Origin: an uncultured Candidatus Saccharibacteria bacterium
GTDB taxonomy: Bacteria > Patescibacteriota > Minisyncoccia > Phycocordibacterales > UBA9973
Assembly (NCBI GenBank): GCA_964450735.1
Contig: CAYVDC010000002.1
Coordinates: 64,703-128,702, forward strand
Length of the DNA: 64,000 nt
Direction of reading: 5' to 3'
Shown here in pieces: positions 12,045 to 33,381 of the stretch (its first letter is position 1; each line of letters starts with the position of its first letter). A program made the position numbers and the translations under genes. Under the pieces are notes generated by a model. That model was not told the origin of the DNA, ran no database searches, and saw only the letters and a program-made list of their open reading frames with translations.

Positions 12045-13142
12045 TTAGCGATTCATTGGCATAATGAGGTAGAGGAACGTGGTGTCTCCAACTCCCTTAG
12101 CGAGAATCGGACGTGATGGTGCTGTACATTCAAGAGCGATACTATCGGTTGGAATAGCATTGAGACAGTCGAGCAAATATCGGTAGTTAATTACAATTGA
12201 AATTGGTTCACCAGAGAGGGCGGCATCAAGATTAGCTTCGTTTTCACCAATGTCGCTGTTTTTTGCCGAAAGAACGCATGTTTTCTTTTCTGGGTTTATG
12301 GCAATAGTAATCTGGTTGAACTTGTCACTAAAGAGTGTGCTAGTTTTTACGGCGTTTTGAAGTTCAGATTTGAGAATAATCATTTCGCTTGTTTTTTCTT
12401 TTGGAAAAATCTTTCGGTAGTCTGGAAACACCCCATCAACAACACGTGACGTAATATAATAACCATTAAATGAGATAGAGAGGAGGTTTTTTGTTATGCA
12501 AAATGAGATGTCTCCTGAAACACCAGCAAGGATGCGCTGGAGTTCTACAGCATTTTTGTATGGGAGCAATATTGGCTGAAAACCATACAAGCCTTTTACT
12601 TTTATTTTCTTCTCAGCAAGCCGGAATGAATCAGTTGCTACGAATGTAAGAACATCTTCTTCGGGATAAATATAAATACTTCCAATTTCAGGTTTGATAT
12701 CTGTCTGGGCAGCGGCGTAGTAAACAGATTCAAGACCATCAAGAAATGAATTAGTAGGTATTTTAATAGTTTCTCCTTCTACTGTTGGAATAGTAGGGAA
12801 GTCTTCGTAGGGGAATGTTTTAATCTGAATGCGTGCTTGTTTGGTTTTTACTAGCAATGTTTCGCCAATCTGTTCCATTGATACTTCTTCGTTCGCTTTG
12901 CTGTTTGCAAAGAATCCAGAGAGTACTGTTCCTGAAACAGCTACAACACCCTCTTTCTCTACCTTTGCAGGAATTTCAATTTCAATACCGAGGCTCAAGT
13001 TTGTTGCGCGAAACTTTAGGGTTGATCCTGATGCAATACAAAGAACAGATGAAAGTATTGGCAACGTTAGATTTTTGCCGGTTGCTCGTTCTGCGTGTAG
13101 CAGTGCATTCTTAACTTGTTCACTGTTGCATTGTATTTTCAT
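12045..13142 (-). CDS. dnaN: DNA polymerase III beta sliding clamp
   Basis: MKIQCNSEQVKNALLHAERATGKNLTLPILSSVLC.. (typical DnaN N-terminus); 365 aa; three-domain length; located directly downstream of dnaA. Confidence 0.9.
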   Translation of the reverse strand: MKIQCNSEQVKNALLHAERATGKNLTLPILSSVLCIASGSTLKFRATNLSLGIEIEIPAKVEKEGVVAVSGTVLSGFFANSKANEEVSMEQIGETLLVKTKQARIQIKTFPYEDFPTIPTVEGETIKIPTNSFLDGLESVYYAAAQTDIKPEIGSIYIYPEEDVLTFVATDSFRLAEKKIKVKGLYGFQPILLPYKNAVELQRILAGVSGDISFCITKNLLSISFNGYYITSRVVDGVFPDYRKIFPKEKTSEMIILKSELQNAVKTSTLFSDKFNQITIAINPEKKTCVLSAKNSDIGENEANLDAALSGEPISIVINYRYLLDCLNAIPTDSIALECTAPSRPILAKGVGDTTFLYLIMPMNR

Positions 13143-13361
13143 ATATATAAACTATTACTACTATTAGTCCTGTGGATTAGTGGATAACTTTTTAAAACTG
13201 ATTTCTAAAGGATATAATCATACTTTTGAAAAACATCTGTTGGGTATAACTTTTATTTTTATTTTTTCTTGAAGAAATCTAGATTTTTTATCCACACCAC
13301 TTTTTTTATTTCCTTACCTTCTGCCTCTTTCTCCACAAACTTTTCCCAAACCTTATCCACA
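13143..13361. promoter_or_regulatory. DnaA-box cluster plus AT-rich tract in the dnaA-dnaN intergenic region (candidate oriC / DNA-unwinding element)
   Basis: A head-to-tail pair TGTGGATTA-GTGGATAAC near 13171-13188, exact consensus TTATCCACA near 13288-13296 and again near 13353-13361, plus ctccacaaac-type degenerate boxes. There is a T-rich run (..ttttatttttatttttt..) near 13245-13270. Approximate coordinates. Confidence 0.6.
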
Positions 13362-14753
13362 CTATTTGAACATAATTCGAAGCTGTTCCACCTCGCTTAC
13401 AAGTTGTGGATCAGTCTTCATGTCATTTTTAATCTTGTCGCATGAGTGGATTACCGTTGTATGGTCTTTGCCTCCAAGTTTTTGGCCGATGAGTGGATAA
13501 GAAACATTGAATTCTTCACGGAGGATATACATAACCATCTGTCGAGCTTTTACTATCTCTTTGCGGCGAGTCTTTTCATAGATAGATGCTTCCTCGACAT
13601 TATAAAAATCAGCGACGATTTTAACTACTTCTTTTGAAGAAATGTTTTTCTTTGGCTTGATGCTATTTTTTATAAGGTTTTTAACCTCTGCAAGAGCCAA
13701 GGCGCGGCCTCGAACCTGCGTTTGCATGATAAGCGTGTTGAGATTTCCTTCTAGTTCACGAATATTACTCTCTACAGACGCTGCAATATATTCAAGTACG
13801 CCTTCTTCCACTGCTATTCCCTTTTCTTTGATTTTGGAACGGAGAACGGCTACGCGTGATTCATAGTCTGGTTCAATAACGTCAACGATCATGCCCTGTG
13901 AGAATCGGGATCGTAGGCGGTCTTCGAGTCCTGGGATGAAGTTAGGGTGTTTATCTGATGAAAAGATAATCTGCTTGTTTGCTTCGTAGAAAGTATTAAA
14001 GAGGTGGAACAATTCTTCCTGGCTTTTCTCCATTTTGCCGATGAATTGGATATCATCCATGATTAAAACATCGTATTTTCGGTACTTTTCTTTGAAAACA
14101 TGAGGTTTGTTGTTTTGGACAGAGTTAATATAGTCCATGGCAAACTTCTCGAGAGTAATGTAATGAACTCGTTTTTCGGGATATTTGTTTTTGACTGAGT
14201 TTCCAAGGGCCTGAATAAGGTGTGTTTTGCCGAGACCAGTGTTTCCGTAGACGAAAAAGGGATTATACGCTCGGCCTGGCTTGGCTACTATGGCCTGGGA
14301 AGCGGCATAGGCGAGTTCGTTGAATGGTCCAACGATGAATGTATCAAAAGCGTACTTTGGGTTAAGGTTATCGTCTTTGTTTATAGGGGTTTCAGCTAGT
14401 GGAAGCTCTTGGGGAGCATCGGTTTTTGGTGCATTTGCTGCTTCTGCCTGCTTGCTGATGCGCATTTCAGGCTTCATGATCATATATTCTACGGTACGAA
14501 TATGGTCGGCAATATTCATAAGTGATTTAAGAATAAGCTTATGATATTTTTGGATGAGCCAGTCTTTGACGAATTCGTTTGGTACGCCAACAAAAACGAC
14601 GCCCTCATCCTCTCGGATAACTGCAGTGTTTTTGAACCAGGTGTTAAAGTTAGCTTTCGAAACCTCTATCTCGATGTCTTTGAGGCATCGCGCCCACAGC
14701 TCTCGTGTATCGGTTACTTCCATAGTTGGCATATTATAGTACGGCTGGAACAA
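13362..14753 (-). CDS. dnaA: Chromosomal replication initiator DnaA
   Basis: AAA+ Walker A GNTGLGKTHL, Walker B VLIMDDIQF, sensor and C-terminal HTH (..EIVKARQMVMYILREEF..GQKLGGKDHTTVIHSCDKI). The first codon of the track ORF is non-ATG; the true start may be one of the ATGs 7-10 codons downstream. Confidence 0.9.
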   Translation of the reverse strand: MFQPYYNMPTMEVTDTRELWARCLKDIEIEVSKANFNTWFKNTAVIREDEGVVFVGVPNEFVKDWLIQKYHKLILKSLMNIADHIRTVEYMIMKPEMRISKQAEAANAPKTDAPQELPLAETPINKDDNLNPKYAFDTFIVGPFNELAYAASQAIVAKPGRAYNPFFVYGNTGLGKTHLIQALGNSVKNKYPEKRVHYITLEKFAMDYINSVQNNKPHVFKEKYRKYDVLIMDDIQFIGKMEKSQEELFHLFNTFYEANKQIIFSSDKHPNFIPGLEDRLRSRFSQGMIVDVIEPDYESRVAVLRSKIKEKGIAVEEGVLEYIAASVESNIRELEGNLNTLIMQTQVRGRALALAEVKNLIKNSIKPKKNISSKEVVKIVADFYNVEEASIYEKTRRKEIVKARQMVMYILREEFNVSYPLIGQKLGGKDHTTVIHSCDKIKNDMKTDPQLVSEVEQLRIMFK

Positions 14754-20258: not shown

Positions 20259-21320
20259 TTACCATTGTTTTATGTGATAGTGATCAGATTCTTTGACAAA
20301 AACTGTAGATCCAACGGTGTAAAAGCCGGCTTGATTCATTGGGCATCCATCTGAAGAGGTTCCATCAATCCAATGACCACATACTTTTGTTGTTAATCCT
20401 ACGATATATGCACTTAATTCTGGCGTTATGGAAAGGTCTACGATGCCACTGCCAATTTCGTGTGATTTGTGAAGCCAGCATTCAGTACCGCCAGTGACAA
20501 CAATCTTGCAGTTTGCTTGAGCTGCTGCAGAAAGGTTGCCGCAAACCTTGGTTCGCAGGTCGCCCAGCTTGAGAAGAGCTGTATTTCCAAGTTTGTATAC
20601 TGTTGTGCAGTTTGATGCGCCAACAGTAGGACAATTACTTTTATTAACGGTGACTCCAACGCCAAGCAGTCTGCTGCGATAGTCAGCATCATTATTGTTG
20701 ATCACTGGACGGCCTCCCCATGGAGTATCTTTGTCGAGAGCAACACCGTCTGCCGCTGCAGCATTGATGCTGGTTTGTGAGCAGTTAATATTAACAACTA
20801 CTTGCTGTCCATTGATTGTTGCATTTTTAGGTACATACGGTGCGGGCAGATCATCTGCGCCAGTTGTTACAACAGCCAGTCCTTTGGGAGGATCAAGGCG
20901 AATTTCGATGAGTGCTGGGTTAATCGTGTTAAGCAGAAGCCATGATACGAGAGCCAAGATGAGGCCAAATATTGCATTTGAAATCATTTCTTTGCCACCC
21001 TCTTTTTTGGAGATAGCATCTGTTGTCATGTATTGAACACCACCCAAGACAATCATGATAACCCCCAATACTCCGATGATGCTGATGATAACTTTGATCG
21101 CGAGGTTAATATAATCAGCCGCTGTGGTTACCTTCGGGTCGTACTTGTCATAAACTTGTCCTCCCCCCATTGGTAGTGGCTCTAGGAGGCAATACTGTCC
21201 AGAACCAGTTTCTTGGCAATCAGCAGATGCTTTTTGTGGTGCTAGCACTCCAAAACCAAGGCTGGTAGCCAGGAGTATTCCGAAGACTGTAAGCGTTATG
21301 TATGAAGCAAGTTTACGCAT
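20259..21320 (-). CDS. Pilin-like (TrbC/VirB2-type) protein with C-terminal Cys-rich extracellular domain
   Basis: Signal peptide (..LAPQKASA), then two hydrophobic helices flanking a short polar loop (..DYINLAIKVIISIIGVLGVIMIVLGGVQYMTTDAISKKEGGKEMISNAIFGLILALVSWLLLNTINP..), the topology of VirB2/TrbC pilins. This is followed by about 200 aa containing about 10 Cys. Confidence 0.45.
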   Translation of the reverse strand: MRKLASYITLTVFGILLATSLGFGVLAPQKASADCQETGSGQYCLLEPLPMGGGQVYDKYDPKVTTAADYINLAIKVIISIIGVLGVIMIVLGGVQYMTTDAISKKEGGKEMISNAIFGLILALVSWLLLNTINPALIEIRLDPPKGLAVVTTGADDLPAPYVPKNATINGQQVVVNINCSQTSINAAAADGVALDKDTPWGGRPVINNNDADYRSRLLGVGVTVNKSNCPTVGASNCTTVYKLGNTALLKLGDLRTKVCGNLSAAAQANCKIVVTGGTECWLHKSHEIGSGIVDLSITPELSAYIVGLTTKVCGHWIDGTSSDGCPMNQAGFYTVGSTVFVKESDHYHIKQW

Positions 21321-21322
21321 GA

Positions 21323-22336
21323 TTATTTTAGATTAATGGTAATGCTCTTTTCTGCATCAAGGAATAATTTTGAAATATTTTCTATTCGAAGCTTCAGGTT
21401 GGATATTCCTTTTGTTTCTCCACTTTTCAATGTCAGCATGTTTGCGGTCACTGGTGTCTGCACGTCGCTTCCGTTGATTGTCCAGCTATATGCAAGTTGA
21501 GATGAAAGCGGATTTGCTGGAGAGAAGAAGTATGGGATTGCTAAAATTGTCTTTTCGGCCGTCGTGACATCGTAGTTTGTACCTAATTCATGATTCCAGT
21601 CGATGCCATTAATCGGGTCTCGATTGTACATGAGGATTTTGGGTTTGAAGACGTTTACTGTTGCTGTTCCTATCGCAGTAGATCCTGAGGAATTGTCTTG
21701 CCCTATTACTTCGATTTTTTCTGATGGATTCAAATAGTCTTGGGCGAATAAAAGGATGCTCTTGTTGTATCCAGAGTTGTTTGATAGAACGTTGTCATTT
21801 TTTTTCCATCTAAAAACGTATTTAGTTATGTCTAGCGTTCCTGCCCCGTTGTTGATTTGAGGTATGGCTAGTACGCGGATAACCCCTTCTGAGCTTGGGA
21901 GAGCTCTTCCTTTGTAAAAAGGAGGAGTGTATGAGTCAGCACCTTCCCATACTATGTTAATTTCTGATGGATTAAAAACAAAGTTTTTTTGCAGCGTTTC
22001 TCCGCTTGCAAGAAGCATCATGAGGGTAACCGTGGTTCGTTCACCAATCCCTTTGGTGGTAAAGGTGAATTTATATGCTCCTGTTTGCGACAATACTGTC
22101 TTGCCGTCTATTTTCCAAATGAAATAGGCACGAGAAACATTTGTTAGATAGCTTTCTGCTGTAATAGTGACTTCTTGAAAAGGTCCTGGTACTTCTGGGT
22201 TTGCTGAAAAAGAAATATCGTTGTCGTTGATTTGAGCTGCCTGTTCTGGAGATGATTGTGCGAGTGCAATAATAGGAGAAAACGCCACTCCTACGAGAAG
22301 CAGCCCAACGAGCATTAGTGCATGAATGCGAGTCAT
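21323..22336 (-). CDS. Secreted beta-rich hypothetical protein (338 aa)
   Basis: Start moved to the internal ATG, which gives a clean signal peptide MTRIHALMLVGLLLVGVAFSPIIALAQS; the track ORF extends 55 codons upstream into the VirB4 gene. Repetitive Thr/Asn-rich beta-strand pattern. Confidence 0.5.
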   Translation of the reverse strand: MTRIHALMLVGLLLVGVAFSPIIALAQSSPEQAAQINDNDISFSANPEVPGPFQEVTITAESYLTNVSRAYFIWKIDGKTVLSQTGAYKFTFTTKGIGERTTVTLMMLLASGETLQKNFVFNPSEINIVWEGADSYTPPFYKGRALPSSEGVIRVLAIPQINNGAGTLDITKYVFRWKKNDNVLSNNSGYNKSILLFAQDYLNPSEKIEVIGQDNSSGSTAIGTATVNVFKPKILMYNRDPINGIDWNHELGTNYDVTTAEKTILAIPYFFSPANPLSSQLAYSWTINGSDVQTPVTANMLTLKSGETKGISNLKLRIENISKLFLDAEKSITINLK

Positions 22337-22400
22337 ATTCACCTGTATAGTATACCGTGAAAAGAATAAATACAGAACCCTTTTTGTGGGTTTCTCGGCT

Positions 22401-24236
22401 TTATTTTCCCTCGGCTTGTTCGTGTTCTTGTTTAGCTTTTCGGATCGCAAGGATTTGGCTCGGATCCGAGGTAACAATCTGTTCCTCGGTATAGGACGCA
22501 ATAACTTTGATAGCTACGTGCTTAAGACCGGCAAAGAAGATGCCTTCCCCTACGCCTGATTCAAGAAGCAGGTACTTTTCCTCATCCGTCAGATGGAAGA
22601 CCTTTTGAAGGTTATCAATCGAGCTCGGCGACTGTTTGAGGAGGATTTGAATTGAAGAGTTTGAAACGATCGGAACACCGTATGGGCTCTTCATAAAGTC
22701 GTCGATGTTTTGAGTAATTGTTGAAAGTCCGAGATAGTATTTTCGTCCTCGTTTTGCGATGCCGAACAAGAATGACGCAGTATCTTCGGATTTCATCATG
22801 ATCCAGGCCTCGTCCACAACCAAGAGGCGCTTTTTGAGAGTACGGCGCACAGCGGTCCAGATATGGTGAGTAACGATGTACATAGCAACTGGCTTCAAGT
22901 CTTCTTCCATATCTCGGATCGAAAAGACGACAAGGCGCTTGTTGATATCAACGTTGGTTGGCTGGTTCAAGAATGTTGACCACGAACCTTTAGTAAACTT
23001 TTGGAGGCGCTGCAGCAACGACTCAGAGCCTTCCATACCAGCAACCACCATTTCAAAGTCAGAAAGAAGCGGAGGTTCTGCATTTGTAAGGTCACTGTCA
23101 GGAGTGATATCTTTGAGGGCGTAAGTTTCGGTGATCGCGCGGTCGACGATAGCATCTTCTTCTGGGGTCAATCCCCCGAGCATGATGCGGAACAATCCGA
23201 CAAGCTCGATAACGTTCTTGCGGATAACATCGGCGGTTGTCTCGTCTTCGGTTGCAACTGGCAAGTCAAATGGATTGATGTGGTGGTCAGATGAAAGTGA
23301 AATATTAAAATATCGTCCGCCTACCGCTTCAGCTAAATATTCATATTCTCGTTCTGGGTCGATAACGATCACGTCAGTATCGAACATGAGCGTTCGGAGA
23401 ATTTCAAGTTTTGTGGTGAAGGACTTTCCGGAACCAGAGGTTGCAATAGTAACCGAGTTGTAGTTTTCGAGAGAGAATCGATCAAAAATGATCAGTCCTG
23501 AGTTGTGGCGGTTAACTCCGTAGAGAATTCCCTTGTCTGAGGTAAGATCGAATGAAACAAATGGGAAGATGCTCGAAAGAGGCTCGGAATTGAGCTTCTG
23601 GTGGATAGAAAGCATGTCGTTTCCAATTGGAATAACGCTCTTGAAGCCTTCTTCCTGTTGGAAAAGAGCTGGTTTGAGGTACACTAGTTTGGATTCGAGG
23701 ATAGATTTGATCTCATTCTCTGTTTTGAAAAGCTCCTGTTCGTCATCGGCGTAGATAGTGATATAAAGACCGACATCGAACATTTTCTGCTGAGCCTGCA
23801 TCAGGCTGTTGCGGAGGTTTTCCAAGTCATTAACCGCGGTATCAAGCATGGGGTCTCGAACGAGACCCTTCCCCTCGCGCACATTGATCTGGCTCTGCAC
23901 CTCGGCTACTTTTTTCTGGAAGTCGCGAAGAATCTTTTCTGTTTCGATTGGGTGTATGAAAATGGAAACATCAAAAATTTTATCGAGGTTAATGACGGGA
24001 GAGAACCAGTTGTCAGTTAAAAATCGTGGGTAGGAAATAACGAAAAATGTTCGAGCAACCTTTGATCCAAGATTGATCTGTTTCGGGTCTATCTTGAGCG
24101 CTGAAGGCGCAATGATGTCGCGAAATTCAAGCGTCGCAGCCTCGTAAATTTCAGACGGCAAAACAGGCATAATGCCGCTTGCCGTCTGCGTCATGCCCGA
24201 GTTCTTTTTTCCAAATAATGCGTCGAAGATTCCCAT
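22401..24236 (-). CDS. virB4: VirB4/TraC/TrbE-family type IV secretion ATPase, middle and ATPase domains
   Basis: Walker A TIATSGSGKSFTTK; the VirB4-characteristic DPEREYEY (DPxGEY-like) motif right after it; Walker B LLVVDEAWIMM; 611 aa with about 260 aa before Walker A (..VISYPRFLTDNWFSP..SIFIHPIE.. resembles the VirB4 middle region). Confidence 0.75.
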   Translation of the reverse strand: MGIFDALFGKKNSGMTQTASGIMPVLPSEIYEAATLEFRDIIAPSALKIDPKQINLGSKVARTFFVISYPRFLTDNWFSPVINLDKIFDVSIFIHPIETEKILRDFQKKVAEVQSQINVREGKGLVRDPMLDTAVNDLENLRNSLMQAQQKMFDVGLYITIYADDEQELFKTENEIKSILESKLVYLKPALFQQEEGFKSVIPIGNDMLSIHQKLNSEPLSSIFPFVSFDLTSDKGILYGVNRHNSGLIIFDRFSLENYNSVTIATSGSGKSFTTKLEILRTLMFDTDVIVIDPEREYEYLAEAVGGRYFNISLSSDHHINPFDLPVATEDETTADVIRKNVIELVGLFRIMLGGLTPEEDAIVDRAITETYALKDITPDSDLTNAEPPLLSDFEMVVAGMEGSESLLQRLQKFTKGSWSTFLNQPTNVDINKRLVVFSIRDMEEDLKPVAMYIVTHHIWTAVRRTLKKRLLVVDEAWIMMKSEDTASFLFGIAKRGRKYYLGLSTITQNIDDFMKSPYGVPIVSNSSIQILLKQSPSSIDNLQKVFHLTDEEKYLLLESGVGEGIFFAGLKHVAIKVIASYTEEQIVTSDPSQILAIRKAKQEHEQAEGK

Positions 24237-24237
24237 G

Positions 24238-24885
24238 TTATTGTTGCAACTTTATTGAACTTGATATTTCGCCTGGGTTGAAGACCTTGTAGTACAGCTC
24301 GATCGCTTCTTCTGTTCCAACCTGCACTGATCGTACGCCAACTCGAGTAAGTCCTTGCTGTACGACGCCGATGCGTTGGTCGAGCTGCGTGCGATGCTCC
24401 TCAAAGCTGATGAGCGCATCGCTCTTTGCTCCCTGACTTGGGGCTTTGGTTCCGCCAAACAATGATTTGCTCAGAGTTCCAGCAGATCCAAGCGGCGAAG
24501 AGCTATATGGGACTACGACAATAAATGTCTTTGTCATGATGGCAACTTCATTGGTGAAATTTTCTATGAAGTGCGTGTACTCTTCTGTCTGAATCTTGAG
24601 CAGTGGTTCGAGCTGCGCCTTTTTGCGTTCTTTGAGAAGTGCGATGTATGGGCGGATATCAAGACGGCGAGACTGTACAACGATCTGTACTGAGAAGTCG
24701 AGCGAGTTCAAAAAGTTTTGGAACTGCATGATCGTTCCCTGCTGTTCGTCTGCAGACTTGAGTGAAAGGTTAACTGACGAAGCAAGCAAAAGAGCGCGCA
24801 TGCTGCCATCATTCAAAATAATGATGCCGTCGCGCACCTCCCTGATCGGAACGAACTCTTGAGTTGCTTTTGCGTTGAGTGCCAT
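24238..24885 (-). CDS. VirB4 N-terminal domain-like protein (separate ORF abutting the ATPase ORF)
   Basis: 215 aa, ..FVPIREVRDGIIILNDGSMRALLLASSVNLSLKSADEQQGTIMQFQNFLNSLDFSVQIVVQSRRLDI.. resembles the N-terminal region of Gram-positive-type VirB4 proteins. Its stop is separated by a single nucleotide from the ATG of the 611-aa ORF, in a different frame. Confidence 0.5.
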   Translation of the reverse strand: MALNAKATQEFVPIREVRDGIIILNDGSMRALLLASSVNLSLKSADEQQGTIMQFQNFLNSLDFSVQIVVQSRRLDIRPYIALLKERKKAQLEPLLKIQTEEYTHFIENFTNEVAIMTKTFIVVVPYSSSPLGSAGTLSKSLFGGTKAPSQGAKSDALISFEEHRTQLDQRIGVVQQGLTRVGVRSVQVGTEEAIELYYKVFNPGEISSSIKLQQ

Positions 24886-24914
24886 CTGGTACTTAGTATA
24901 TCATAAACCCATTG

Positions 24915-25337
24915 TTAGCTCTTCTTGTTCTTGTCCATATCAAGCACATCGAGGCTCCACGAAAGATCCTTGAGCTTAGAATTGGAGAGTTTGGGTATAT
25001 AGTTGAAATTCGCCAAGCTGTCCTCTTCTTTCTTTTCCTCGGGCTTCTTTTTCTTGGCTTGTTTTTGCTTCCATACGTACAGCTTTGCCCCAATATAGTA
25101 ATTGAATGCTGATTCCATTATAGAAATGAACGGGCGATTGTTGACCTTGTAGAATGTGAGTGCGAGAGCAAGCGTTGCGATAGGAATAATGAGCGGAATC
25201 GCAATATAGAATGGCAAGAGTTTCCAGAGCACAAAAGATCCTCCTGCTCCTCCAAGGAGATAGATGAATTGCTTGAACGTGAACGGTCCAAAGATTTTAT
25301 CCTCCACATCGATAAACTGAGGAACTTGAAATTGCAT
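24915..25337 (-). CDS. VirB3/PrgI-like small membrane protein
   Basis: 140 aa with two adjacent TM helices (..FIYLLGGAGGSFVLWKLLPFYIAIPLIIPIATLALALTFY..) then a basic tail. It sits directly upstream of the VirB4 ORFs, the VirB3-VirB4 (PrgI-PrgJ) arrangement. Confidence 0.45.
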   Translation of the reverse strand: MQFQVPQFIDVEDKIFGPFTFKQFIYLLGGAGGSFVLWKLLPFYIAIPLIIPIATLALALTFYKVNNRPFISIMESAFNYYIGAKLYVWKQKQAKKKKPEEKKEEDSLANFNYIPKLSNSKLKDLSWSLDVLDMDKNKKS

Positions 25338-25404
25338 GAATATAGTATAGCAGTTCCCAAAAGAAAAATCAGGGTTGTCCCTGATTTTTCGTGGTATACA
25401 TAGA

Positions 25405-26262: not shown

Positions 26263-29200
26263 TTAGTGGTGTGCTCCGTGATCGTCGTGTCCGCCTCCAT
26301 GGTCATCATGGCCTCCTCCCCCACCACCTCCGCTGCCTACTTTGGTAAAGGCATCAAAGAATCCAGCGCTCGGTCCCTTGTATGTGTCTTTCGGATGCGC
26401 ATGATCGTGCTTCTCTGTGCTTATTGCATGGTGAACAGCATCATGTTGAACATCACCAAGGTTTAATGCCTGAGGTAAATGTCGGACTTGGCTCGCTACT
26501 GCTGCAAGTCCACCTGCGAGTACTCCAATACCAATTGTTGCAGGTCCTCCCACAACCGCGCCAGCTAGTCCTGCAGCCAAACCTGCTTTGAGCCCAGTCT
26601 TTATGTCGTTGCCCATATTTCTGTATGCTCGACTCCATCGATCGTTGCTGCTATGATCATGATCCATTTCTCCAAGATCTTTGATGTTTCCAAGTTCGTC
26701 TCGTTTCATACCTGTAATTCCGAGGCCAGTGCCTTTCATCAAGTTATGATGGTACTCTTTCATGCGTGCAACCTTGATGTTTTCAAGATTTTTCTGCATC
26801 TTATCCAAACCTCTCGAGGATTCAACTTCCTCAAGGGTAACCTTTCTGACGGATGAAGTCCCATCAGCCTTAAGAACCTCAAGTGATTTACCTTCATCTT
26901 CTTTCGTAAGAGCTCGAGTTGTAGGATTGCCCTTGGCATCTTTACCTGTTATCACTTTTTCTCCTGAACCCTTCTTCATTTCGCGGAGTTTCTGCTTGTC
27001 AGTGTTTACCTCACTTTGTTTAGCAGCAACATCCGCGTTGATCTTAGCTTTCTCTTTAGTCTTATTTTTAGGAAGAGCTCTTTCTTGGGCTTTTAATTTT
27101 TCTATCTCCTCTTGTTTTCTGGATATCTTGTCTTCTTGGTTAGAAATATCTGTTTCTTTTGCTTCTATCTTTTTCTTTTCCTCATCGTATTGTTTCTTGT
27201 CGTATCCGCTTCCAAAGATCTTTGCCTTTCTCTCCATTTCAACTTTTTCTCGCTCAACATGTGCGTCATATCCGCCAGCTCGTGCTCCCGTGCTGAAGTC
27301 TGCACCAGTAACTGACTTGAGAGCGCCTGCTCCCATGTTCATGTTTACCCCAGTTGCTTTTGAGAGACCGTTTCCGAGACTAGTCTGGCGAACATCAAAA
27401 CTAGATCTCTTGAGCTTGTCAGCAGCAAGGAGCTGTCCTTGAGCCTTGAATTTTTCCCACTTTGTAGATGGGATTTGTCCTGAAGCGATACCTTTGAGTT
27501 TGTCATCGTTAGCAACTCGATTTGCCATGCCTCCGATTGTTCGTGCACCCAGTGCGGCCGCTCCGCCAGTGATAGCCATAGCTCCCAATCCTGCGCCTGC
27601 TGCAACGATACCTGCAAATGCCGCACCAAATTCACCCGCCATATCCTCGGCGATCTTTTTGGCTGCCATAAGGAGTCCGACGACAATCATCGTTGGGAGG
27701 AGAATAGCAACGAGGAATGTCACCCAGTTGCCACTATTTGCATTGGTGACGGCAGCAATTGTCGTGCCCATTAGTCCTTTGTCTCCCCCTCCTACAAGGT
27801 TTACGATCAAGTAAAGGAAGAAGAAAAATATTGGTGCGTTGAAACATGCCTTCATAAAACCAGAAAGCCATTGATGCCAGCCGAGCTGCTTGAGATTTTT
27901 CTCGAGCCCTGGAACGATGCTAGTCACAAACGCTAGTGGCGCAAAAATCATCGAGAACCAGATAACGCCGATACGCCCAGCAAAGAATGCCGCGCACATA
28001 AAGAATATCCACGCCATGATCAAGTTCAGTATGAACGAGATAAGTAGGATAGTAAGAATACTACCTGTTCCCATATCTGCTTTCCCCAAGCTTTCTGGAC
28101 TCAAGAGTTTCTGTGGCTGAACACCTTCGATGATTGCTGCTGAGATAGGCTGCTCGACTGGACCTGCTTTTGTTGCCGCAACGTTTCCTTTTGAGGAAAT
28201 ATTCATTGCATTGTAAAAGACACGCGATAAGACGTTTGATGTATCAACCATGATCCTACAGAAGAACAGACTGAAGTTGATGATGATGGCTATAATGATA
28301 ACTTGGGCGACGATCTTTTTGGTGTCGAAATGGTGCAAGGAAAGAACTAATCCGATCGCTGCGTAGAGAAGAATAAAGATGAAAAAGATGTTAGAAATGT
28401 CACGAACCAAACTCCAGCCGTTTTCTACGAATGATGCGATCCCCGCGCCGTTTACCCCCTGGCCATAAATGGTGCTACCAAGCGATACTGCAGCAAATGC
28501 GTCAAAAAGCGAACCTGTTAACCGGTTAATTCGGACTGCTACTGGAACAAGAAGGTTGTTGAAGAGTTCGGCAAAACAACCGCTCACATCGAGACTTGGA
28601 AGGATTGCTCCCTTCTCCACCCAAAAACACTTCAAGTGATCTGCAATCTGTTTGTTTCCCTGAGTTGCATTTACTACTTGGTTTGTTTCCGCATATGCCT
28701 GTGTAACTTCATTACTGATATCGGTATTTGTTTCTGCAGCCGCAGCGTCGGTTAGGGTGGTAATTTTTTGGACTGGACCGAGAGCAACAGAGTGAACGCC
28801 AGCTATGGTGTCTTCCTTGAGGGCGAGCTGAACATAATAGTCTTTGCCAGGGAGGATTTGTGGACCGCTGATACGAATTGGCGCAGCGGTAACTGTTGTT
28901 TGATTAAAGAAACGATGGCCAGGATCTAGTCTCCAGAGGTATACACCGATGTTGGTTGCAAGTGTTTTACCTTGGGAAAAAACGAAAGCATTGCCTTGTT
29001 TTGGAGTAAGACTAGTATTGGCTCCCCCGCCGCTGACCTGGAGGGGTTGAACTGTATAGACAAGATCACCGACTACTGTAGAAAAAGGAGCTCCTTGGAA
29101 ATCTGCAACGATATCCGCTGTGCTAGTACCAACAAGCAAAAAGATTCCTTCTGATATGCTATTTTCGAGCCTATCTCTATCTAGAATTTTGTCCCATGCT

Positions 29201-29475
29201 CCCAAGTCATCGCCATAGCTATCAAGCTTATCTACAACTGAACCTGAATCTTGTGCCGCAGGGGTCGCCAAGATCTTTATATCGGCAACAATGTTGTGTG
29301 CGTCGGAATGAAGCACCATGTTGCCACCAATAAATTTAAAGAGATTGCTCTGTACTTCTGTTACTGGAAAACCGGTAAATTCAGCAGCGTAAGCTTTCTG
29401 TGTTCCGCCAAAGGGAAAAATCATACTAGCGAGTATGAACAGCAACAATATTCCTGCGCGGATTTTGCTTCGCAT
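26263..29475 (-). CDS. VirB6/TrbL-like giant polytopic membrane protein (1070 aa) with His-rich C-terminal tail
   Basis: Signal peptide (..GGTQKAYA). About 370-aa extracytoplasmic domain. At least 6 TM helices (..IFFIFILLYAAIGLVLSL.., ..ILTILLISFILNLIMAWIFFMCAAFF..FSMIFAPLAFVTSIVPG.., ..WVTFLVAILLPTMIVVGLLMAA..). Gly/Ala-rich segment. About 300 aa of K/E-rich coiled coil. Terminal GGGGGGGHDDHGGGHDDHGAHH. Confidence 0.5.
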   Translation of the reverse strand: MRSKIRAGILLLFILASMIFPFGGTQKAYAAEFTGFPVTEVQSNLFKFIGGNMVLHSDAHNIVADIKILATPAAQDSGSVVDKLDSYGDDLGAWDKILDRDRLENSISEGIFLLVGTSTADIVADFQGAPFSTVVGDLVYTVQPLQVSGGGANTSLTPKQGNAFVFSQGKTLATNIGVYLWRLDPGHRFFNQTTVTAAPIRISGPQILPGKDYYVQLALKEDTIAGVHSVALGPVQKITTLTDAAAAETNTDISNEVTQAYAETNQVVNATQGNKQIADHLKCFWVEKGAILPSLDVSGCFAELFNNLLVPVAVRINRLTGSLFDAFAAVSLGSTIYGQGVNGAGIASFVENGWSLVRDISNIFFIFILLYAAIGLVLSLHHFDTKKIVAQVIIIAIIINFSLFFCRIMVDTSNVLSRVFYNAMNISSKGNVAATKAGPVEQPISAAIIEGVQPQKLLSPESLGKADMGTGSILTILLISFILNLIMAWIFFMCAAFFAGRIGVIWFSMIFAPLAFVTSIVPGLEKNLKQLGWHQWLSGFMKACFNAPIFFFFLYLIVNLVGGGDKGLMGTTIAAVTNANSGNWVTFLVAILLPTMIVVGLLMAAKKIAEDMAGEFGAAFAGIVAAGAGLGAMAITGGAAALGARTIGGMANRVANDDKLKGIASGQIPSTKWEKFKAQGQLLAADKLKRSSFDVRQTSLGNGLSKATGVNMNMGAGALKSVTGADFSTGARAGGYDAHVEREKVEMERKAKIFGSGYDKKQYDEEKKKIEAKETDISNQEDKISRKQEEIEKLKAQERALPKNKTKEKAKINADVAAKQSEVNTDKQKLREMKKGSGEKVITGKDAKGNPTTRALTKEDEGKSLEVLKADGTSSVRKVTLEEVESSRGLDKMQKNLENIKVARMKEYHHNLMKGTGLGITGMKRDELGNIKDLGEMDHDHSSNDRWSRAYRNMGNDIKTGLKAGLAAGLAGAVVGGPATIGIGVLAGGLAAVASQVRHLPQALNLGDVQHDAVHHAISTEKHDHAHPKDTYKGPSAGFFDAFTKVGSGGGGGGGHDDHGGGHDDHGAHH

Positions 29476-29533
29476 TCTGTTGTAAGTATACCCTAGATAC
29501 TATTTTTTAGGAATGCATAGAAGGCTTGGGGAT

Positions 29534-32427: not shown

Positions 32428-32451
32428 ACGATGGTGTAAGTATAACAATCT

Positions 32452-33330: not shown

Positions 33331-33381
33331 ATGTGGAATAAGTATAACTTATTTTTATATGCAATACTATTTTTTAAAAAG

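What the first reader, a model, noticed from the sequence alone, without database searches (positions are those of the whole stretch)
22401..24885. VirB4 ATPase encoded as two abutting ORFs (N-terminal domain, stop, one nucleotide, then ATG of the ATPase part, in a different frame)
The 215-aa ORF (24238..24885) resembles the VirB4 N-terminal domain. The 611-aa ORF (22401..24236) carries the middle region and the Walker A/DPEREY/Walker B ATPase core. Together they make 826 aa with Walker A near residue 475, the normal VirB4 layout. The junction reads TAA-N-ATG with a frame change. It could be a genuine split gene with termination-reinitiation coupling, a programmed frameshift, a recent pseudogenising indel, or an assembly error. 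Each has different implications for whether the machine is functional.
Basis: seen in the sequence. Interest (0 to 1): 0.6.

Follow-up and report, generated by a model that had tools for sequence, protein, structure and literature searches.

The report
Naturally split VirB4 ATPase (TrsD + VirB4)
The secretion-machine ATPase VirB4 really is encoded here as two back-to-back genes, but this is the normal, conserved and already published arrangement (a TrsD-like protein followed by a short VirB4) in this group of ultra-small bacteria, not an error, a dead gene or a frameshift.

Summary
A 215-aa ORF (24238..24885, minus strand) ends in TAA, one base follows, and the ATG of a 611-aa VirB4 ATPase ORF (22401..24236) comes next in another frame.

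It is a fixed gene split. In 80 of 80 related species genomes (Paceibacteria/Nomurabacteria) the same two genes sit in the same order with a stop between them. The spacers range from 1 to 451 nt and fall in all three phases.

- **ORF1 is a TrsD-family protein.** It aligns along its whole length with TrsD of the staphylococcal plasmid pSK41.
- **The breakpoint matches pSK41.** ORF2 begins at the same point as pSK41 TrsE.
- **Fused relatives exist.** In a sister clade (Colwellbacteria) the pieces form one ~790-aa VirB4. ORF1 aligns to its residues 1-212 and ORF2 to residues 232-796, so nothing is missing.
- **The fold is complete.** The fused model superposes on full-length R388 TrwK/VirB4.

Assembly error, recent pseudogene and programmed frameshift are rejected. 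Termination-reinitiation coupling is plausible in this genome but is not conserved in the family.

TrsD homologues next to virB4 in Patescibacteria, and their remote homology to the VirB4 N-terminus, were published in 2025. The finding is real, ordinary and already known.

The parts
24915..25337 (-). PrgI / VirB3-like small membrane protein gene, immediately upstream of ORF1
   Evidence: Pfam PF12666 PrgI, E 3.8e-09, 37.4 bits against a cutoff of 27. The order VirB3-like then TrsD then VirB4 is the same as trsC-trsD-trsE in pSK41.
24895..24900 (-). TATACT -10-like box, 9 nt upstream of the ORF1 ATG
   Evidence: The same hexamer lies 6-12 nt upstream of the ATG of most genes of this cluster. 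This is a consensus match only; function is inferred.
24238..24885 (-). ORF1, 215 aa: TrsD-family protein, the detached N-terminal subdomain of VirB4
   Evidence: NCBIfam: VirB4_plasma positions 102-217 (E 1.2e-08), CD1110 positions 2-104 (E 8e-04), TrsD/TraD (E 1.3e-03). A profile of 71 homologues against pSK41 TrsD gives E 4.3e-05 over 174 columns. ORF1 is 38% identical to residues 1-212 of the fused VirB4 P0211. The top 9 Foldseek PDB hits of the AF2 model are TrwK/VirB4.
24237..24237 (-). One-nucleotide spacer (C) between the ORF1 TAA and the ORF2 ATG
   Evidence: In 80 related loci the same spacer is 1-451 nt, with a median of 7.
22401..24236 (-). ORF2, 611 aa: VirB4 body (second half of the N-terminal domain plus the ATPase domain)
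   Evidence: NCBIfam CD1110 family, 391 bits (cutoff 325), profile positions 182-733 of 752. Pfam P-loop_TraG, AAA_10 and DUF87. PDB 4AG5 VirB4 C-terminal domain, E 6e-40, on residues 233-589. ORF2 is 55% identical to residues 232-796 of fused P0211.
23421..23435 (-). Walker A (GSGKS), ORF2 residues 268-272
22803..22826 (-). Walker B region (LLVVDEAW), ORF2 residues 471-478
20259..21320 (-). Downstream gene carrying a T4SS pilin domain, part of the same T4SS locus
   Evidence: Pfam PF18895 T4SS_pilin, E 9.6e-08.

Best explanation
This is a chromosomal type IV secretion locus of a Paceibacteria-type (Patescibacteria/CPR) bacterium. In it, VirB4 is made as two polypeptides from two adjacent genes. 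ORF1 is a TrsD-family protein and corresponds to the first ~210 residues of a canonical VirB4, the N-terminal half of its N-terminal domain. ORF2 carries the rest of that domain plus the RecA-like ATPase domain. The break falls in a variable linker, at the same place as the TrsD|TrsE break of staphylococcal plasmids pSK41/pGO1. The sister clade Colwellbacteria has the same two pieces fused into one ~790-aa protein. What is shown: the homology, the collinearity, the conservation of the split and the existence of fused relatives. What is inferred: that the two proteins reassemble non-covalently into a VirB4-like protomer, and that ORF1 supplies surfaces that in R388 belong to the VirB4 N-terminal domain (dimer contact, membrane association, VirB3/VirB8 contacts). 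Also inferred for this genome: ORF1 and ORF2 are co-transcribed from the TATACT box 9 nt upstream of ORF1. Ribosomes finishing ORF1 at TAA would then re-initiate one base later at the ORF2 ATG, because ORF2 has neither a Shine-Dalgarno sequence nor its own -10 box.
For: Conservation of the split: all 80 species-level loci have the ORF1 homologue, a stop and then the ORF2 homologue, and both ORFs are intact in every locus. ORF1 has more than 7,800 homologues, and the best 120 are 188-236 aa with 59-100% identity. 149 of the best 150 representatives of 50%-identity clusters are not full-length VirB4 (116-443 aa), against 2,998 hits in total.

Complementarity: ORF1 matches CD1110 positions 2-104 and ORF2 matches positions 182-733. 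In VirB4_plasma the two match 102-217 and 293-892. ORF2 residue 39 aligns with PrgJ residue 225, and ORF2 residue 40 aligns with pSK41 TrsE residue 36.

Fused relatives: ORF1 aligns to P0211 residues 1-212 (E 2e-47) and ORF2 residues 40-603 align to P0211 residues 232-796. 118 of the 120 best hits to P0211 are 775-807 aa. The AF2 model of P0211 superposes on full-length TrwK (E 2e-28, TM 0.63, ~840 columns).

TrsD identity: hhalign E 4.3e-05 over 174 columns. The gene order VirB3-like, TrsD, VirB4 is the same in pSK41.

Literature: TrsD homologues occur in 2,221 Patescibacteria assemblies, 1,664 of them next to virB4. They are remotely homologous to the VirB4 N-terminus, and the homologue in Southlakia ML1 is essential (PMC12102498). 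The roles of the VirB4 N-terminal domain come from PMC12857230.

Coupling: 0 of 46 long ORFs in the window have a Shine-Dalgarno motif. TATACT lies 9 nt upstream of ORF1 and no such box precedes ORF2. 42 of 80 relatives have spacers of 7 nt or less.
Against: No physical interaction between ORF1 and ORF2 was tested, and no heteromer model could be computed. The Foldseek match of ORF1 alone to TrwK is weak (E 0.02, TMq 0.41), and the ORF1 model is only moderately confident (pLDDT 72). ORF1 scores far below the curated cutoff of the NCBIfam TrsD model (18.5 against 200 bits). A 71-sequence profile of ORF1 against a single PrgJ sequence was not significant. Coupling is not conserved: 23 of 80 relatives have spacers longer than 30 nt, several with TATAAT-like boxes just upstream of virB4, so linked translation is not required for function. 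Short same-strand gaps are common throughout this compact genome, so the 1-nt gap is not special.
Confidence: 0.85

Rival explanations
1. ORF1 is an independent accessory or regulatory paralogue of the VirB4 N-terminus that acts apart from the ATPase. It would not be a structural piece of a split VirB4.
For: [quoted passage not shown] TrsD homologues in Gracilibacteria are mostly not adjacent to virB4. Some homologues carry long disordered C-terminal tails.
Against: ORF2 lacks exactly the ~150-185 N-terminal positions that canonical VirB4, TraC and PrgJ have. ORF1 fills them collinearly in the fused relatives, and the fused model has a complete TrwK-like fold.
Confidence: 0.1
2. A programmed +1 ribosomal frameshift near the junction produces a fused 826-aa VirB4, alone or together with the two separate products.
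For: ORF2 is in the +1 frame and the two ORFs abut.
Against: The ORF2 frame is open for only 5 codons before its ATG. In 80 relatives the spacer is 1-451 nt, in all three phases (17/39/24), often with further stop codons and with no conserved shift site. The ORF2 ATG and its N-terminal residues (MGIFD...) are conserved as a start.
Confidence: 0.02
3. A recent pseudogenising indel or nonsense mutation split a formerly fused gene.
For: Fused versions exist in a sister clade.
Against: The split is present in 80/80 species with both ORFs intact and 59-92% protein identity. Truly broken fused genes look different. In L083 and L084 the frame changes fall inside the conserved TrsD domain, with missing residues.
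Confidence: 0.01
4. An assembly or sequencing error (a 1-nt indel) artificially split one gene.
For: None beyond the frame change itself.
Against: The same architecture was assembled independently in 80 genomes from many studies. An identical ORF1 protein is present in an NCBI contig of 131,987 bp. Removing one base would not fuse the frames, because of the TAA.
Confidence: 0.01

Closest known systems
TrsD + TrsE of Staphylococcus aureus conjugative plasmids pSK41/pGO1 (MPF_FATA, pGO1 subclass)
   Same: The gene order is VirB3-like (trsC), trsD (227 aa), then the VirB4-like trsE (672 aa). ORF1-family profile aligns with TrsD over 174 columns (E 4.3e-05). ORF2 residue 40 aligns with TrsE residue 36, so the breakpoint is the same. 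The intergenic spacer is short, 14 nt in pSK41.
   Different: The pSK41/pGO1 system is a plasmid conjugation system with a relaxase and coupling protein, whereas this locus is chromosomal and lies near dnaA/dnaN. Sequence identity is very low (~17-21%). ORF1 is far below the curated NCBIfam TrsD cutoff.
TrsD homologues next to virB4 in Patescibacteria (Quinonero-Coronel et al. 2025, Microb Genom, PMC12102498)
   Same: This is the same thing. That paper calls TrsD the most abundant T4SS component in Patescibacteria, mostly adjacent to virB4 and remotely homologous to the VirB4 N-terminal portion. It also places the T4SS near dnaA/dnaN in Paceibacteria. In the window, dnaA is at 13362-14732 and dnaN at 12045-13142.
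   Different: My term searches of the paper's main text found no mention of 'split', 'truncated' or 'shorter', no statement that the neighbouring VirB4 lacks this portion, and no mention of fused TrsD-VirB4 relatives. Its only fusion mention is that no VirB3-VirB4 fusions were seen. I did not read the whole text or the supplements. It says no function has been assigned.
Fused VirB4 of Candidatus Colwellbacteria (P0211 and about 118 relatives, 775-807 aa)
   Same: ORF1 is 38% identical and ORF2 55% identical to the corresponding segments. The layout is collinear.
   Different: These are single polypeptides. The linker is 19 residues (213-231), compared with 47 residues of tail plus head in the split form.
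Canonical one-piece VirB4 (R388 TrwK; pCF10 PrgJ; F TraC)
   Same: The ATPase core and the overall fold are shared: the fused relative superposes on TrwK with TM 0.63. A VirB3-like gene lies immediately upstream.
   Different: The canonical protein is a single polypeptide. In some systems VirB3 is even fused to VirB4, which is the opposite tendency.

Membership tests
VirB4-like conjugal transfer ATPase, CD1110 family (NCBIfam NF045971), for ORF2 | Whole-protein score above the curated cutoff | tested here: met
   391 bits against a cutoff of 325, E 1.1e-116.
VirB4-like conjugal transfer ATPase, CD1110 family (NCBIfam NF045971), for ORF2 | Walker A and Walker B ATPase motifs | tested here: met
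   GSGKS at residues 268-272 and LLVVDEAW at 471-478. PDB 4AG5 VirB4 C-terminal domain, E 6e-40.
VirB4-like conjugal transfer ATPase, CD1110 family (NCBIfam NF045971), for ORF2 | Full-length coverage of the profile, including the N-terminal ~180 positions | tested here: not met
   ORF2 covers profile positions 182-733 of 752 only. ORF2 residue 39 aligns with PrgJ residue 225. ORF1 supplies the missing positions (2-104).
TrsD/TraD family conjugative transfer protein (NCBIfam NF041427), for ORF1 | Score above the curated cutoff of the model | tested here: not met
   18.5 bits against a cutoff of 200, E 1.3e-03. ORF1 is a distant homologue, not a member of the narrow NCBIfam subfamily.
TrsD homologues in the broad sense (as used for Patescibacteria in PMC12102498) | Detectable homology to TrsD along the whole protein | tested here: met
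   hhalign of the 71-sequence profile A2 against pSK41 TrsD: E 4.3e-05, probability 69%, 174 columns, residues 7-202 against 33-217. The CONJScan/MacSyFinder TrsD profile used in the paper was not available here.
TrsD homologues in the broad sense (as used for Patescibacteria in PMC12102498) | A free-standing protein of ~200-230 aa encoded between a VirB3-like gene and virB4 | tested here: met
   Window order: PrgI, ORF1, ORF2. pSK41 order: trsC, trsD, trsE. 80/80 related loci show ORF1 followed by ORF2.
VirB4 N-terminal domain, for ORF1 | Sequence homology to the N-terminus of one-piece VirB4 proteins | tested here: met
   VirB4_plasma profile positions 102-217, E 1.2e-08. 38% identity to residues 1-212 of fused P0211, E 2e-47.
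VirB4 N-terminal domain, for ORF1 | Fold similarity to the N-terminal part of a solved VirB4 | tested here: inconclusive
VirB4 N-terminal domain, for ORF1 | Physical association with the VirB4 body and with VirB3 | not testable with these tools
   No multimer prediction or experiment was available.
Programmed ribosomal frameshift genes (prfB- or dnaX-like) | A conserved shift site and a conserved overlap or phase relation of the two frames across relatives | tested here: not met
   Spacers are 1-451 nt in phases 0/1/2 = 17/39/24, with no overlap window. The ORF2 frame is closed 6 codons upstream of its ATG.

The most novel reading that the evidence does not exclude
TrsD is not merely homologous to the VirB4 N-terminus: it is the detached N-terminal subdomain of VirB4. 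This VirB4 architecture would have switched between split and fused states more than once (split in pGO1-type plasmids and most Patescibacteria, fused in Colwellbacteria). That would assign a function to the 'function unknown' but essential TrsD of Patescibacteria. It would also suggest that separate expression of the VirB3-docking or dimerising module is used to control assembly or stoichiometry of the inner-membrane complex.
Probability: 0.35. Interest if true: 0.4.

Novelty: already known. Interest (0 to 1): 0.2.

Why it matters
For annotation, this junction should not be flagged as a frameshift, pseudogene or assembly problem, and the T4SS of this genome should be scored as intact. For biology, the comparison adds a modest point to the literature. 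TrsD is listed as abundant, essential in Southlakia and of unknown function. Together with the short VirB4, it adds up exactly to one canonical VirB4, and natural fused forms exist. That gives a concrete, testable function for TrsD: the N-terminal subdomain of VirB4, likely involved in VirB3 docking or protomer pairing.

Tried and rejected
- Pfam gave no hit for ORF1, even at E 10. The precomputed label PF26593 is not in the Pfam copy I could search, so I cannot name it.
- A sequence search of the PDB with ORF1 found nothing meaningful.
- hhalign of the shallow profile A1 against pSK41 TrsD was weak (E 0.027, probability 1.8%). It became significant only with the more diverse profile A2.
- hhalign of A2 against the single PrgJ sequence was not significant (E 0.58), although it aligned to the expected N-terminal region. 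I do not count it as evidence.
- Guglielmini et al. 2014 (PMC4027160) is cited by the 2025 paper for the TrsD-VirB4 homology. Its main text does not contain 'TrsD', so I cite only the 2025 paper for that statement.
- A neighbour-joining tree of TrsD domains places the fused N-termini in one neighbourhood nested among free-standing TrsDs. This would suggest secondary fusion. The tree is star-like, has no bootstrap and has free-standing sequences interspersed, so I treat the direction of change as unresolved.
- Two 600-aa 'split-looking' relatives of the fused clade (P0292, P0388) turned out to be broken fused genes, not clean splits.
- The sigma-70 consensus scan found no more promoter-like sites than in shuffled sequence.
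Full report
**1. The observation**

The coordinates and the junction are exactly as described. ORF1 (24238..24885, minus strand, 215 aa) ends in TAA. One base (C, 24237) follows. ORF2 (22401..24236, 611 aa) then starts with ATG in the +1 frame. The ORF2 frame is closed by a TAA only six codons upstream of its ATG. In ORF2, Walker A (GSGKS) is at residues 268-272, DPEREY at 293-298 and Walker B at 471-478. These are residues 483-487, 508-513 and 686-693 of the 826-aa sum.

**2. What the two ORFs are**

ORF2 is a VirB4-type ATPase.
- It scores 391 bits against the NCBIfam CD1110 family (cutoff 325).
- It also hits the Pfam families P-loop_TraG, AAA_10 and DUF87.
- It matches the solved C-terminal domain of Thermoanaerobacter VirB4 (4AG5, E 6e-40) on residues 233-589.

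ORF2 covers only the later part of every full-length profile:

| Profile | ORF2 residue where match begins | Profile position where match begins |
|---|---|---|
| CD1110 | 33 | 182 of 752 |
| F-type TraC | 82 | 249 of 800 |
| VirB4_CagE | 95 | 276 of 792 |

ORF2 therefore lacks roughly 150-185 N-terminal positions of a canonical VirB4.

ORF1 has no hit in my Pfam copy. It does match the N-terminal positions of the same VirB4 profiles: CD1110 positions 2-104 (E 8e-04) and VirB4_plasma positions 102-217 (E 1.2e-08). It also matches the TrsD/TraD family (E 1.3e-03).

The upstream gene (24915..25337) is PrgI/VirB3-like, and a downstream gene carries a T4SS pilin domain. dnaA and dnaN lie 8-10 kb away. 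This is a chromosomal T4SS locus near the replication origin.

**3. Is the split real?**

ORF1 has more than 7,800 homologues. The best 120 are all 188-236 aa free-standing proteins at 59-100% identity, with natural and variable C-terminal ends.

A scan of one genome per species returned 80 loci, from Paceibacterota, Nomurabacteria and 'Patescibacteria group' MAGs produced by many studies. In all 80:
- the ORF1 homologue is followed by a stop and then the ORF2 homologue;
- the spacer is 1 to 451 nt, with a median of 7; 42 loci have 7 nt or less and 23 have more than 30 nt;
- the spacers fall in phases 0/1/2 in 17/39/24 loci;
- the ATG and the first residues of the VirB4 body (MGIFD...) are usually conserved.

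This pattern excludes an assembly error, a recent pseudogene and a programmed frameshift.

Two 600-aa relatives of the fused clade (L083, L084) show what real damage looks like. Their frame changes fall inside the conserved TrsD domain, and residues are missing.

**4. Is ORF1 really the missing piece?**

A profile search of 1.84 billion cluster representatives found 2,998 relatives. Of the best 150, 149 are not full-length VirB4 (116-443 aa) and one is a 797-aa protein, P0211 from Candidatus Colwellbacteria.
- ORF1 aligns to P0211 residues 1-212 (38% identity, E 2e-47).
- ORF2 residues 40-603 align to P0211 residues 232-796 (55% identity).

Between these blocks the fused protein has 19 residues. 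The split pair has 8 + 39 = 47 residues there. Nothing is missing, and the break lies in a variable linker.

The fused form is not a one-off: 118 of the 120 best hits to P0211 are 775-807 aa. An AlphaFold2 model of P0211 (pLDDT 73) superposes on full-length R388 TrwK/VirB4 (E 2e-28, TM 0.63, ~840 columns). The ORF1 model alone (pLDDT 72) has TrwK chains as its nine best PDB hits, but only weakly (E ~0.02, TMq ~0.41).

**5. Known precedent**

Plasmid pSK41 has trsC (VirB3-like), trsD (227 aa) and trsE (VirB4-like, 672 aa) in the same order as the window.
- A 71-sequence profile of the ORF1 family aligns with pSK41 TrsD over 174 columns (E 4.3e-05).
- ORF2 residue 40 aligns with TrsE residue 36, so the breakpoint is the same.
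- In pCF10, by contrast, PrgI is followed by a one-piece 796-aa PrgJ, and ORF2 residue 39 aligns with PrgJ residue 225.

Quinonero-Coronel et al. 2025 (PMC12102498) report TrsD as the most abundant T4SS component in Patescibacteria. They found 2,272 homologues in 2,221 assemblies, 1,664 of them next to virB4. They describe TrsD as remotely homologous to the N-terminal portion of VirB4, with no assigned function, and as essential in Southlakia epibionticum ML1. They place the T4SS near dnaA/dnaN.

The feature is therefore already described. My term searches of that paper's main text found no statement that the adjacent VirB4 lacks this portion, and no mention of the fused Colwellbacteria clade. 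I did not read the whole text or the supplements.

**6. How it most likely works**

Shown here: the homology, the collinearity, the conserved split and the fused relatives.

Inferred: ORF1 and ORF2 assemble non-covalently into a VirB4-like protomer. In R388 the VirB4 N-terminal domains pair the protomers, associate with the membrane and contact VirB3 and VirB8 (PMC12857230). ORF1, encoded right after the VirB3-like gene, probably supplies part of these surfaces.

Expression:
- None of 46 long ORFs in the window has a Shine-Dalgarno motif.
- A TATACT box lies 6-12 nt upstream of the ATG of many genes. These include ORF1 (9 nt), the PrgI gene and four other genes of the cluster. ORF2 has no such box.
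- In this genome ORF2 is therefore most likely translated from the ORF1 transcript by re-initiation after the TAA. This is inference, based on general knowledge of termination-reinitiation at short distances.
- The mechanism is not conserved. In relatives with longer spacers, TATAAT-like boxes appear just upstream of virB4, so the two genes can also be expressed separately.

**7. Direction of evolution**

A rough neighbour-joining tree of TrsD domains, rooted on pSK41 TrsD, puts the fused N-termini in one neighbourhood nested among free-standing ones. This hints at a secondary fusion. The tree is unsupported, so I leave the direction open.

**8. Verdict**

The 'genuine split gene' reading is supported and the other three readings are rejected. 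The arrangement is ordinary for this lineage and already published as TrsD + VirB4. Interest is low. The small added value is the explicit demonstration that TrsD plus the short VirB4 equals one canonical VirB4, and that natural fusions exist.

Noticed in passing
whole window; e.g. 24895-24900, 25344-25349, 22349-22354, 29485-29490, 32439-32444, 33341-33346 (all minus strand): None of 46 long ORFs has a Shine-Dalgarno-like motif within 20 nt of its ATG. An exact TATACT hexamer lies 6-12 nt upstream of the ATG of about 10 genes, including most genes of the T4SS cluster. This suggests leaderless or very short-leader mRNAs, each with its own promoter. TATACT is not enriched overall (43 observed, about 51 expected), but 15 of the 43 have an ATG 4-13 nt downstream.
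   Followed up: partly
L037:4670-4799, L065:4640-4755; L012, L021, L024, L048; L013, L044, L057, L073; L009, L010, L022, L032, L038, L079 (trsD-virB4 spacers): In relatives with long spacers, the gap between trsD and virB4 holds small repeated elements. There is a long palindrome (cccgttagaagccgcggtcgc...gcgacctgcttctaacggg) in two genomes, a hairpin 'ctaggcaagacct...aggtcttgcct' in four, TAGGC-type tandem units in four, and 'agttataaagt'-type units in six. These may be miniature mobile or regulatory repeats.
   Followed up: no
P0226, P0209, P0187, P0249 (proteins): Some TrsD homologues, of lineage unknown to me, are 406-443 aa. They carry long Pro/Gln/Ala/Thr-rich, apparently disordered C-terminal tails after the conserved ~210-aa domain.
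   Followed up: no
L083:1282-1850 and L084:1362-2253: Two members of the fused Colwellbacteria clade have the fused virB4 broken by frame changes inside the TrsD-like domain. L083 lacks residues 90-192. In L084 the shift falls in the disordered loop at residues 148-178. These are either true pseudogenes or assembly errors in TPA MAGs.
   Followed up: partly
window 12045-14732 (minus strand): dnaN (12045-13142) and dnaA (13362-14732) lie about 8-10 kb from virB4. The T4SS locus is therefore close to the presumed replication origin, as reported for Paceibacteria in PMC12102498.
   Followed up: partly
window 26263-29475 (minus strand): A 1070-aa protein just upstream of the cluster has a signal-like N-terminus, a long block of hydrophobic helices, a Lys/Glu-rich coiled-coil-like stretch and a Gly/His/Asp-rich C-terminal tail (GGGGGGGHDDHGGGHDDHGAHH). 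It has no Pfam hit. It might be the VirB6-like component, but this was not tested.
   Followed up: no
window 21323-22501 (minus strand): The mechanical ORF call starts at a TTG and overlaps the 3' end of virB4 by 101 nt. The ATG at 22336, which has a TATACT box 12 nt upstream and begins 'MTRIHALMLVG...', is the more likely start. That leaves a 64-nt gap after virB4.
   Followed up: partly
literature: PMC12857230 section 12: The 2025 FEMS review states that pIP501 traC is immediately adjacent to traE (VirB4). From my own recollection (not checked here), traD lies between them in pIP501. In the related pSK41 locus, which I did inspect, trsD lies between trsC and trsE. The TrsD/TraD piece seems to be overlooked in that description.
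   Followed up: no
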